Virus record (IMG/VR): IMGVR_UViG_3300043447_000086
Source of the DNA: a virus
Taxonomy: Duplodnaviria > Heunggongvirae > Uroviricota > Caudoviricetes
DNA length: 64,000 nt
Reading direction: 5' to 3' (one strand)
Made by a program: the position numbers and the translations under genes. Below are positions 47,792 to 48,109 of the stretch, in pieces. Position 1 is the stretch's first letter. Each line of letters starts with the position of its first letter. The notes beneath the pieces are model-generated. The model saw nothing but the letters and a program-made list of their open reading frames with translations, had not been told where the DNA came from and ran no database searches.

Positions 47792-47872
47792 AAAAAACCC
47801 TCTGGACTTTCGTCTCAGAGGGTTTTGGTAAGTAACCTTGATGGTATTCTAAGTCTTACTTGCCAAAACCCC
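47792..47872 (-). terminator. Attenuator: intrinsic terminator with mutually exclusive antiterminator
   Basis: AAAACCCTCTG/CAGAGGGTTTT plus U-tract; upstream GGGGTTTTGG..GTAAG can pair with CTTACCAAAACCC. Confidence 0.8.
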
Positions 47873-47975
47873 CAGTATCATATTCAATCGCAAATGATGG
47901 GCGTGTGCTTGTCCAGCCGTTATTTACTAACGGTAGTTGCTGCTTATGCATTCTGGATATACAAACGTTTTTCAT
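47856..47975 (-). CDS. 39-aa leader peptide containing all 20 amino acids (not in ORF track)
   Basis: MKNVCISRMHKQQLPLVNNGWTSTRPSFAIEYDTGGFGK; near-leaderless behind promoter 47986-48014; stop lies in the antiterminator arm. Confidence 0.7.
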   Translation of the reverse strand: MKNVCISRMHKQQLPLVNNGWTSTRPSFAIEYDTGGFGK

Positions 47976-47985
47976 AGTAGAAAGA

Positions 47986-48109
47986 ATTATGTCCTAAAAG
48001 GTTGTTTTCGTCAAGTACTTTCTGCAGTAACCTTACAATCAGTAGGGTCTTTCCTGCAGCTAGTAATCTATTTATAAGGAATTATGGCTCAAAAGTGGGA
48101 AAAAGTCAA
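47986..48109 (-). promoter_or_regulatory. Promoter cluster upstream of the leader
   Basis: TTGACG-17-CATAAT (47986-48014) with CCTTAC-N5-GTAGGG (48031-48047); late TATAAATA (48069-48076); TTGACT-17-CATAAT (48081-48109). Confidence 0.78.

What the first reader, a model, noticed from the sequence alone, without database searches (positions are those of the whole stretch)
47792..48014. All-20-amino-acid leader peptide and attenuator at the head of the tRNA array
Just behind a TTGACG-17-CATAAT promoter is a near-leaderless 39-codon ORF (47975-47856). It contains every amino acid and 33 distinct codons, usually switching synonym on reuse (AAA/AAG, CAG/CAA, CTA/TTA, CCG/CCA, AGA/CGC, ATA/ATT, TCC/AGC/TCA). 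Its last codons and stop (GGG GGT TTT GGC AAG TAA G) form an antiterminator arm pairing with CTTACCAAAACCC, which overlaps the 5' arm of the following strong terminator. As in trp/his attenuators, a ribosome reaching the stop masks that arm and allows termination; stalling earlier frees it and allows read-through into the 37-tRNA array. This would be a pan-tRNA depletion sensor that up-regulates phage tRNAs when any host tRNA is starved or cleaved. Caveat: two more promoters lie downstream of the terminator, so control is at most partial.
Basis: partly seen in the sequence, partly recalled or inferred. Interest (0 to 1): 0.9.

Follow-up and report, generated by a model that had tools for sequence, protein, structure and literature searches.

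The report
All-amino-acid leader peptide attenuator for phage tRNAs
A tiny translated gene at the front of a phage's tRNA gene array keeps one codon for every amino acid across very divergent relatives and ends inside an RNA hairpin that competes with a terminator, so it probably works as a sensor that raises phage tRNA transcription when any tRNA runs short.

Summary
The 39-codon ORF (47975-47856, minus strand) has all 20 amino acids. On its own that is weak: 2 of 130 small ATG-ORFs in the window show it.

In uncultured T4-like phages I found about 80 distinct homologues and several barely alignable relatives.
- **Position:** all sit at the head of a tRNA array, just upstream of tRNA-Gln.
- **Translation:** the frame survives at least 12 in-frame indels. 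The ATG either lies 6-10 nt after the -10 box with no Shine-Dalgarno (SD) site, or follows a 53-61 nt leader with an AAGGA SD site.
- **Coverage:** 59 of 73 distinct peptides keep 20/20 residues, and the rest keep 19. Rare residues (C, H, Q, Y, V) move position but are retained. A tree-aware null gives 22% (maximum 64% in 1000 runs) against 82% observed.
- **RNA:** the last codons and stop form the 5' arm of a hairpin whose 3' arm holds the base of the terminator's 5' arm. A modelled ribosome on the stop codon frees the terminator completely.
- **Promoters:** in 21 of 65 loci no promoter lies between the terminator and tRNA-Gln.

The best reading is a ribosome-mediated attenuator that monitors all tRNAs. 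This rests on comparison and folding only; no experiment has been done. In this window two downstream promoters limit its control.

The parts
48081..48109 (-). Upstream promoter-like site P1 (TTGACT-17-CATAAT). It would give the sORF a leader of about 100 nt.
   Evidence: Consensus scan, 10 of 12 matches. Relatives with an SD site before the sORF have a promoter 53-61 nt upstream.
48022..48059 (-). Hairpin between P1 and P2 (CTGCAG...CCCTAC-N4-GTAAGG...CTGCAG). A similar hairpin precedes promoters in related loci.
   Evidence: Read directly from the sequence. It recurs in homologous loci. Its function was not tested.
47986..48014 (-). Promoter P2 (TTGACG-17-CATAAT) directly in front of the sORF.
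   Evidence: In 58 homologues the ATG lies 6, 7 or 10 nt after the -10 hexamer.
47856..47975 (-). Leader sORF: 39 codons plus TAA, all 20 amino acids, near-leaderless.
   Evidence: The frame is kept open in 32 of 32 first-round homologues through in-frame indels. pN/pS is 0.2-0.7.
47913..47936 (-). Mid-ORF hairpin M, spanning the L-P-L...G-W codons. It may be an RNA polymerase pause or synchronising hairpin (inference).
   Evidence: It folds in 51 of 51 distinct versions with many different stem sequences; mean z is -2.1.
47892..47909 (-). Block AGCACACGCCCATCATTT, conserved at the nucleotide level. CACGC is invariant, including at synonymous sites.
   Evidence: In some minimum-energy folds it pairs with the G run at the 5' base of hairpin H1. 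Its role is unresolved.
47818..47873 (-). Hairpin H1, the candidate antiterminator. The 5' arm is the last five codons plus the stop. The 3' arm ends in CCCUC, which is the base of the terminator's 5' arm.
   Evidence: In RNA truncated before the terminator's 3' arm, H1 pairs 4-5 of the CCCUC bases in 72 of 72 sequences. The lower helix is 93.7% paired but invariant. Divergent lineages show compensatory arm changes, UUUUGG/CCAAAA against UUUGUG/CACAAA.
47792..47822 (-). Intrinsic terminator (attenuator): stem 47822-47798, U tract 47797-47792.
   Evidence: two stem pairs with 28 and 20 double compensatory changes. One search shows CCCCGA/UCGGGG and CCCCUG/CAGGGG variants.
47723..47750 (-). Promoter P3 (TTGACT-16-TAGAAT), downstream of the terminator.
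   Evidence: It is absent in about one third of homologous loci.
47641..47669 (-). Promoter P4 (TTGACC-17-TATAAT).
47615..47631 (-). boxA-like element UGUUCUUUAAAAAUUUG just before tRNA-Gln.
   Evidence: Single match in the window. It is 14 of 17 identical to the E. coli rrn boxA-spacer listed in PMC2724277 Table 1. It is conserved before tRNA-Gln, and after internal array promoters, in related phages.
47483..47556 (-). tRNA-Gln(UUG), the first gene of the tRNA array.
   Evidence: It is the first tRNA after the leader in 35 of 35, and later about 65, related loci.

Best explanation
The sORF is the leader peptide of a ribosome-mediated transcription attenuator for the phage tRNA operon.

Proposed sequence of events:
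1. Transcription starts at or a few bases before the AUG, so a ribosome can load as soon as the 5' end emerges.
2. The ribosome must read about 40 codons. Together these include every amino acid, and in most versions both codon boxes of Arg, Ser and Leu plus the rare AUA. Wobble-read codons are mostly preferred.
3. If the ribosome keeps pace and reaches the stop codon, which lies inside hairpin H1, it holds H1's 5' arm. The CCCUC bases are then free and the terminator forms about 60 nt downstream. Transcription ends.
4. If any codon is read slowly, H1 forms first and sequesters the base of the terminator's 5' arm. RNA polymerase then reads on, past a boxA-like site, into tRNA-Gln and the array.

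The net effect would be homeostatic: a shortage of any charged tRNA raises phage tRNA synthesis.

Shown here by comparison and folding: the ORF is translated, coverage is under selection, the hairpins are conserved, and the genes lie in the required arrangement.

Inferred only: the sign of the response, its size, and the physiological trigger. In this window promoters P3 and P4 make the control partial.
For: **Position.** The sORF lies 110-480 nt upstream of the first tRNA in 35 of 35 loci. In 21 of 65 loci tRNA-Gln starts 50-54 nt after the U tract with no promoter-like site in between.

**Translation.** The frame is open in 32 of 32 despite at least 12 in-frame indels. There are 58 leaderless versions without an SD site, and 8 versions with a 53-61 nt leader and an AAGGA SD site.

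**Coverage.**
- 59 of 73 peptides have 20/20 and none has fewer than 19.
- Cys occurs exactly once in 94% of peptides, spread over 6 alignment columns. His occurs once in 96% and Tyr once in 100%.
- The tree-aware null gives a mean of 0.22 (maximum 0.64 of 1000 runs) against 0.82 observed.
- When a residue type present only once was replaced, it reappeared elsewhere on the same branch in 20 of 27 events, against a null of 19%.

**Codons.**
- 23.5 of 24 decoding groups are covered, against 21.9 in a synonymous-redraw null.
- AUA is present in 85% of leaders (null 16%).
- Wobble codons outnumber cognate codons 57 to 27 when each column-codon combination is counted once.

**RNA.** H1 takes 4-5 of the CCCUC bases in 72 of 72 truncated RNAs. 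The probability of the terminator's five basal pairs is 0.63 for free RNA, 1.00 with a ribosome on the stop codon, and 0.49-0.56 with a ribosome stalled upstream. The stop codon lies 57-67 nt before the end of the U tract.

**Divergent leaders.** L182, L211, L215, L235, L250, L258 and L274 keep the leaderless start, 32-46 codons, 20/20 coverage and a stop-to-U-tract distance of 60-68 nt. In the folds, the stop-codon hairpin takes the terminator's 5' arm in seven of the nine divergent leaders examined; L250 and L274 did not show it.
Against:
- The overlap between H1 and the terminator is only 4-5 nt here, and the two folds are about equally stable at equilibrium. Any large effect would have to be kinetic.
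- H1's lower helix is invariant within the main family, so it has no covariation support there.
- In this window two strong promoter-like sites lie between the terminator and tRNA-Gln.
- 14 of 73 leaders lack one residue type, usually Val or Cys. The missing residue does not match a missing tRNA in the few complete arrays.
- One related array head (L181) has no leader at all.
- Part of the peptide motif is dictated by RNA structure. Third codon positions are only mildly more variable than the others (35/35/49).
Confidence: 0.65

Rival explanations
1. The sORF is an ordinary small protein gene with its own promoter and terminator. Its peptide has a function of its own, for example binding a translation or tRNA-processing factor. 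The position beside the array and the full residue set are incidental or secondary.
For: Several motifs are conserved at the amino-acid level (LPL, GW, R, AIE, D, GFGK), and pN/pS is 0.2-0.7. Small ORFs are common in phage tRNA regions (own knowledge). In this window promoters follow the terminator.
Against: - Most conserved motifs coincide with RNA helices or nucleotide-invariant blocks.
- Divergent relatives share almost no peptide sequence yet keep the length, the 20/20 coverage and the RNA architecture.
- Rare residues move position instead of being conserved in place.
- Codon usage is far from that of the phage's own genes.
- There is no Pfam family.
Confidence: 0.1
2. The sORF is a translated leader with a different readout. 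It may report general translation capacity, ribosome availability or transcription-translation coupling. It may protect the nascent untranslated transcript from Rho until the boxA complex assembles. The sign may be reversed, with stalling causing termination. Under these readings, sensing each individual tRNA is not the selected function.
For: A boxA-like element follows the terminator, which fits a need for processive antitermination. A leaderless start and a mid-ORF hairpin would suit any coupling sensor. At equilibrium, stalling upstream changes terminator probability only modestly.
Against: A general coupling sensor does not need every amino acid. Yet coverage is maintained by relocating residues that occur only once, and by keeping both Arg, Ser and Leu boxes and AUA. 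The folding model gives complete terminator formation only when the ribosome sits on the stop codon.
Confidence: 0.17
3. The region is a structured non-coding small RNA of about 185 nt with its own promoter and terminator. The open frame is a by-product.
For: There are three conserved hairpins and nucleotide-invariant blocks. The fold z-score is -4.1. T4 also carries stable RNAs in its tRNA cluster (own knowledge). One antisense frame is also open in 31 of 32 sequences.
Against: All indels are multiples of three. An AUG is always present. An SD site appears exactly when a 5' leader exists. Amino-acid coverage is a property that only translation can see, and it is statistically maintained. No Rfam family matches.
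Confidence: 0.04

Closest known systems
Leader-peptide attenuators of amino-acid operons (trpL, hisL, leuL, thrL, ilvL, pheL)
   Same: - A short translated ORF sits in the 5' leader.
- The stop codon lies about 60-70 nt before the end of an intrinsic terminator.
- A hairpin involving the end of the ORF competes with the terminator.
- A ribosome at the stop codon favours termination, and a ribosome stalled earlier favours read-through.
   Different: - There is no run of one regulatory codon. Instead every amino acid is present, most rare ones exactly once.
- The regulated genes are tRNAs, in a virus.
- Most versions are leaderless.
- The overlap with the terminator is only 4-10 nt.
- The mid-ORF hairpin does not overlap the antiterminator.
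pheM leader attenuator of pheST (own knowledge)
   Same: Leader-peptide attenuation applied to a gene of the translation apparatus rather than to a biosynthetic operon.
   Different: It senses Phe only and controls a synthetase, not tRNA genes.
Leaderless short ORFs acting as attenuators in mycobacteria (polycysteine uORFs; own knowledge; background in PMC4633059, found but not read)
   Same: Regulatory uORFs that start at the transcript's 5' end with no SD site.
   Different: They are enriched in a single amino acid, are found in bacteria, and control biosynthetic genes.
pyrBI and pyrE attenuators (own knowledge)
   Same: They read out how closely the leading ribosome follows RNA polymerase, acting as a kind of speedometer.
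   Different: In those systems the ribosome blocks the terminator directly and the signal is UTP-dependent polymerase pausing. Here the stop codon is about 60 nt before the termination point, and the signal would be ribosome speed.
T-box riboswitches (own knowledge)
   Same: They couple tRNA charging status to antitermination of genes that supply translation.
   Different: They bind one specific uncharged tRNA directly and need no translation. No T-box features are present and there is no Rfam hit.
rrn boxA / Nus-factor antitermination
   Same: The element at 47631-47615 is 14 of 17 identical to the E. coli rrn boxA-spacer (PMC2724277). It sits at the start of a long untranslated transcription unit.
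   Different: It lies in a phage tRNA array of unknown host, and NusB/NusE binding is untested. It belongs to the downstream context, not to the attenuator itself.

Membership tests
Ribosome-mediated (leader-peptide) transcription attenuator | A short ORF in the 5' leader that is translated. | tested here: met
   Comparative evidence only: in-frame indels, the leaderless-or-SD dichotomy, pN/pS below 1, and selection on residue coverage. There is no direct expression evidence.
Ribosome-mediated (leader-peptide) transcription attenuator | An intrinsic terminator between the leader ORF and the regulated genes. | tested here: met
   A GC-rich stem followed by a U tract, with compensatory changes at two or more stem pairs.
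Ribosome-mediated (leader-peptide) transcription attenuator | An alternative hairpin that excludes the terminator and whose formation depends on ribosome position. | tested here: met
   H1 takes 4-5 of the CCCUC bases in 72 of 72 truncated RNAs. Masking a ribosome footprint on the stop codon gives a terminator probability of 1.00, against 0.49-0.63 otherwise. The same design occurs with different arm sequences in divergent leaders. This is a thermodynamic model only.
Ribosome-mediated (leader-peptide) transcription attenuator | Regulatory codons enriched for the amino acid being sensed. | tested here: not met
   No residue is enriched. Instead all 20 are present and rare ones occur once. This is the feature that makes it a variant.
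Ribosome-mediated (leader-peptide) transcription attenuator | Regulated genes directly downstream, with no promoter of their own. | tested here: inconclusive
   Met in 21 of 65 related loci. Not met in this window, where P3 and P4 intervene.
Ribosome-mediated (leader-peptide) transcription attenuator | Read-through changes with translation of the leader. | not testable with these tools
   This needs reporters, in vitro coupled assays or Term-seq.
Stand-alone small protein gene | Peptide sequence conserved in place, with codon usage like other genes of the genome. | tested here: not met
   Residues relocate. Codon usage is very unlike the phage's genes: in the leaders TTT:TTC is 143:1, CAT:CAC 71:4 and ATA is in 85%. 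Divergent relatives share the architecture but not the sequence.
Known RNA families (Rfam), including T-box | A match to a curated covariance model. | tested here: not met
   Only a sub-threshold 33-nt hit on the terminator (RF02744, 22 bits against a gathering score of 88).
rrn-type boxA antitermination site (downstream element) | boxA consensus bound by NusB/NusE at the start of a long untranslated unit. | tested here: inconclusive
   14 of 17 identity to the rrn boxA-spacer in PMC2724277. It recurs after internal array promoters. Binding is untested.

The most novel reading that the evidence does not exclude
This is a natural pan-tRNA sensor. A leader peptide of minimal length has been selected to contain a codon for every amino acid, and mostly for every tRNA decoding group. 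A shortage of any single charged tRNA slows the lead ribosome and switches a phage tRNA operon on. Causes could include starvation, codon-usage mismatch with the host, or host anticodon nucleases. It would be the first attenuator known to monitor the whole tRNA pool, and the first known feedback control of viral tRNA genes.
Probability: 0.5. Interest if true: 0.92.

Novelty: new variant of a known kind. Interest (0 to 1): 0.86.

Why it matters
Why large phages carry near-complete tRNA sets, and how those sets are regulated, are open questions. Current ideas include matching codon usage, compensating for degradation of host tRNAs, and escaping host tRNA-cleaving defences.

A leader that reads out the whole tRNA pool would show that the phage measures translation supply and adjusts its own tRNA output. 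It would also extend leader-peptide attenuation from sensing one amino acid to sensing all of them, and from biosynthetic operons to tRNA genes.

The element is small, about 190 nt, and self-contained. That makes the idea directly testable in a cell-free system. It could also serve as a compact reporter of translation elongation stress.

The family is widespread in uncultured T4-like phages, with hits in several metagenome collections. It has not been annotated beyond 'hypothetical protein'.

Tried and rejected
- **Whole genome and sequencing runs:** neither is held or offered for this window, so there is no expression evidence.
- **Cultured phages (INPHARED):** no match to the leader. The nearest cultured relatives are only about 40% identical in RNase H.
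- **Family libraries:** no real Rfam hit and no Pfam family for the peptide.
- **Consensus folding:** RNAalifold on a plain MAFFT alignment recovered only the terminator. The other hairpins had to be shown sequence by sequence.
- **Retracted claim:** I first thought the third base of the Gly codon (GGA/GGT) covaried with H1's 3' arm. The pair count showed that position is a mismatch in 38 of 61 sequences, and the lower helix is simply invariant.
- **CACGCCC block pairing with the G run:** a trp-like 1:2 pairing appears in some folds. It shifts register between sequences and changes terminator probability little, so I left it unresolved.
- **Missing residue against missing tRNA:** no match was seen, but only about 10 arrays were complete enough to judge.
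- **Literature:** searches for an all-amino-acid leader, or for leaders of phage tRNA clusters, found nothing comparable.
- **Antisense frame:** one antisense frame is open in 31 of 32 sequences. I judged it a by-product, because in-frame indels preserve every frame and all the signals lie on the sense strand.

Full report
**What is in the window**

On the minus strand a TTGACG-17-CATAAT promoter (48014-47986) is followed after 10 nt, with no Shine-Dalgarno (SD) site, by an ATG at 47975. This opens a 39-codon ORF that ends in TAA at 47858-47856. The ORF has all 20 amino acids and 33 distinct codons.

Its last five codons and the stop form the 5' arm of a long hairpin, H1 (47873-47818). The final five bases of H1's 3' arm, CCCUC, are also the base of the 5' arm of an intrinsic terminator. 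The terminator stem spans 47822-47798 and the U tract 47797-47792. Two further promoter-like sites follow, at 47750-47723 and 47669-47641. After them come a boxA-like element (47631-47615) and tRNA-Gln (47556-47483), the first of 32 or more tRNAs.

**Chance**

Full residue coverage in 39 codons is uncommon:
- 0.6% under a base-composition model;
- 2.8% with uniform residues;
- 0.26% of all stop-free 39-residue windows in the six frames.

The window holds 130 ATG-ORFs of 30-45 residues, and two of them show full coverage. 33 distinct codons is only marginally high (P = 0.053). Taken alone the observation would not stand, so the test had to be comparative.

**Relatives**

No genome is held for this window. 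No cultured phage in the phage collection carries the element. RNase H similarity of about 40% to cyanophages and to the Methylophilales phage Melnitz points to an uncultured T4-like phage.

I collected relatives in three ways:
- searches of viral and metagenome contigs with the peptide;
- a search with the terminator motif;
- two searches with the boxA-like motif, which does not depend on the leader.

Together these gave about 80 distinct versions of the main family and several barely alignable ones. A protein-database search added 42 more, all unnamed or 'hypothetical'.

**Is it translated?**

- The frame is open in all 32 first-round versions, although lengths range from 37 to 44 codons through at least a dozen indels. 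A nucleotide alignment made without reference to the protein also places gaps in multiples of three.
- pN/pS is 0.2-0.7.
- The start comes in two forms. In 58 versions the ATG lies 6, 7 or 10 nt after the -10 hexamer with no SD site, which makes them leaderless. In 8 versions the promoter lies 53-61 nt upstream and an AAGGA SD site sits 9-11 nt before the ATG. An SD site that appears exactly when a 5' leader exists is hard to explain unless the ORF is translated.
- One antisense frame is also open in 31 of 32. I regard this as a by-product of in-frame indels.

**Is full coverage selected?**

Of 73 distinct peptides (32-45 residues), 59 have all 20 residue types and 14 have 19. None has fewer. 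The rare residues are strikingly under-dispersed while changing position:

| Residue | Share with exactly one copy | Alignment columns used |
|---|---|---|
| Cys | 94% (never two in this set) | 6 |
| His | 96% | 5 |
| Tyr | 100% | 4 |

Gln, Val, Asn and Ala also shift position. As an example, two close relatives swap Cys and Asn between position 5 and the position after Trp-Thr.

| Null model | Fraction with 20/20 |
|---|---|
| Shuffling within alignment columns | 13% |
| Drawing from the family's pooled composition | 0.7% |
| Simulation on the tree, same number of changes per column, column-specific states | 22% (maximum 64% in 1000 runs) |
| Observed | 82% |

On the tree, a residue type present only once was replaced in 27 events. 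In 20 of these it reappeared elsewhere on the same branch, against 19% in the simulation. The alignment-dependent part of this test could be inflated by misalignment. However, the moves relative to fixed anchors (LPL, W, R, D, GFG) and the count statistics do not depend on the alignment.

**Codons**

Counting 24 decoding groups (both boxes of Arg, Ser and Leu, and AUA apart from AUY):
- Leaders cover 23.5 groups on average and 57% cover all 24. After redrawing synonymous codons from the phage's own usage the figures are 21.9 and 2.4%.
- AUA is present in 85% of leaders (null 16%) and AGR in 86% (null 51%).
- Codon choice is far from that of the phage's genes: TTT:TTC is 143:1, CAT:CAC 71:4, TAT:TAC 69:3, and GAG and CAG are preferred.
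- Counting each column-codon combination once to limit inflation by shared descent, wobble-read codons outnumber cognate ones 57 to 27.

This fits selection on decoding kinetics. Part of it is imposed by RNA structure.

**RNA architecture**

Three hairpins are conserved.
- *Hairpin M* spans the L-P-L...G-W codons (47936-47913). It folds in all 51 distinct versions, with many different stems such as CCGUU/AACGG, CCACU/AGUGG, CAGCUAC/GUAGCUG and CUACCAU/AUGGUAG.
- *The terminator* shows compensatory changes.
- *H1's lower helix* is invariant in the main family, so it has no covariation support there. Its upper stem varies and still pairs. Divergent lineages replace UUUUGG/CCAAAA with UUUGUG/CACAAA, or use CGAGGG/CCCUCG, which is compensatory.

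Folding gives the following:
- In RNA cut just before the terminator's 3' arm, H1 pairs 4-5 of the CCCUC bases in 72 of 72 sequences.
- In full-length RNA at equilibrium, the terminator's five basal pairs have probability 0.63.
- With a ribosome footprint on the stop codon this probability is 1.00.
- With a ribosome stalled at codon 10 or at Trp it is 0.49-0.56.
- The stop codon lies 57-67 nt before the end of the U tract, close to the trp leader geometry (own knowledge).

The two folds are thus nearly isoenergetic. A strong switch would have to be kinetic, with H1 transcribed first.

**Genomic logic**

The sORF precedes the first tRNA in every locus examined. In 21 of 65 loci tRNA-Gln begins 50-54 nt after the U tract with no promoter-like site between them. 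In those phages the leader's promoter is the only one upstream of the array, and transcription must pass the terminator. Other lineages, including this window, have inserted one to three promoters.

Directly before tRNA-Gln lies UGUUCUUUAAAAAUUUG. It is 14 of 17 identical to the E. coli rrn boxA-spacer listed in PMC2724277. It recurs after internal promoters within related arrays. This suggests Nus-factor antitermination of a long untranslated unit. That is an inference.

**Divergent leaders**

Using the boxA-like anchor I found leaders with little or no recognisable peptide similarity: L182:12941-13066, L211, L215, L235, L250, L258, L281, L274 and L208. They have 32-46 codons, and all but the SD-led L208 are leaderless. 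All nine named here have 20 of 20 residues, one of them in only 32 codons. Other divergent versions fall short: L186 and L252 have 19, and L205 and L290, whose parsing is doubtful, have 18. The stop codon lies 59-68 nt before the end of the U tract. In folds of nine divergent leaders (L182, L186, L208, L211, L215, L235, L250, L258, L274), seven showed the stop-codon hairpin taking the terminator's 5' arm. L250 and L274 did not, because the ORF's 3' end paired elsewhere in the minimum-energy fold. One array head (L181) has no leader.

**Conclusion**

The most economical reading is a leader-peptide attenuator whose leader has been selected to sample the whole tRNA pool. The mechanism belongs to a known kind. 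The all-residue leader, the tRNA operon as the target and the viral setting are new.

What remains inferred: that read-through responds to translation, the sign and size of that response, and what triggers it in nature. In this particular phage promoters P3 and P4 would make the control partial.

Noticed in passing
window 47615-47631 (-); related loci: A boxA-like motif, UGUUCUUUAAAAAUUUG, lies just before tRNA-Gln. It is 14 of 17 identical to the E. coli rrn boxA-spacer. In related phages it recurs downstream of internal promoters inside the tRNA arrays. This suggests Nus-factor antitermination of the arrays.
   Followed up: partly
window 47563-47599 (-): A hairpin, GAGTCACT...GGTTCG...AGTGACTC, lies between the boxA-like motif and tRNA-Gln. 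Its loop region resembles a tRNA T-arm. It is conserved in several relatives but absent in the lineages with a short spacer.
   Followed up: no
window 48022-48059 (-) and upstream of promoters in many loci: A recurring hairpin of the form (A)CCCTAC-N4-GTAGGG(T) sits just upstream of promoters in this region. Its role is unknown; it might be a terminator of the preceding unit or a protein-binding site.
   Followed up: no
window 47355-47375 (-); L003 about 6976-6996: The six-codon minigene MKRAKR, with an AAAGGAG SD site, lies between tRNA-Gln and the two tRNA-Lys genes. It is also present in the relative L003, whose IscA protein is 90% identical.
   Followed up: no
window 47892-47909 (-): Inside the leader, CACGC and the flanking xCA codons are invariant at the nucleotide level across 72 versions. 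Variation falls on first codon positions, the reverse of a coding pattern. This implies an RNA- or DNA-level constraint that I could not explain.
   Followed up: partly
L181: This related array head has no leader. A promoter sits directly in front of the boxA-like motif and tRNA-Gln, so the leader is dispensable in at least one lineage.
   Followed up: no
loci with complete arrays: Phages of this group carry 24-32 tRNAs. In most arrays that could be sampled fully, these cover all 20 amino acids.
   Followed up: partly
window 26154-26288 (-): A second small ORF in the window (44 residues) also has all 20 amino acids. It was not examined and may be chance.
   Followed up: no
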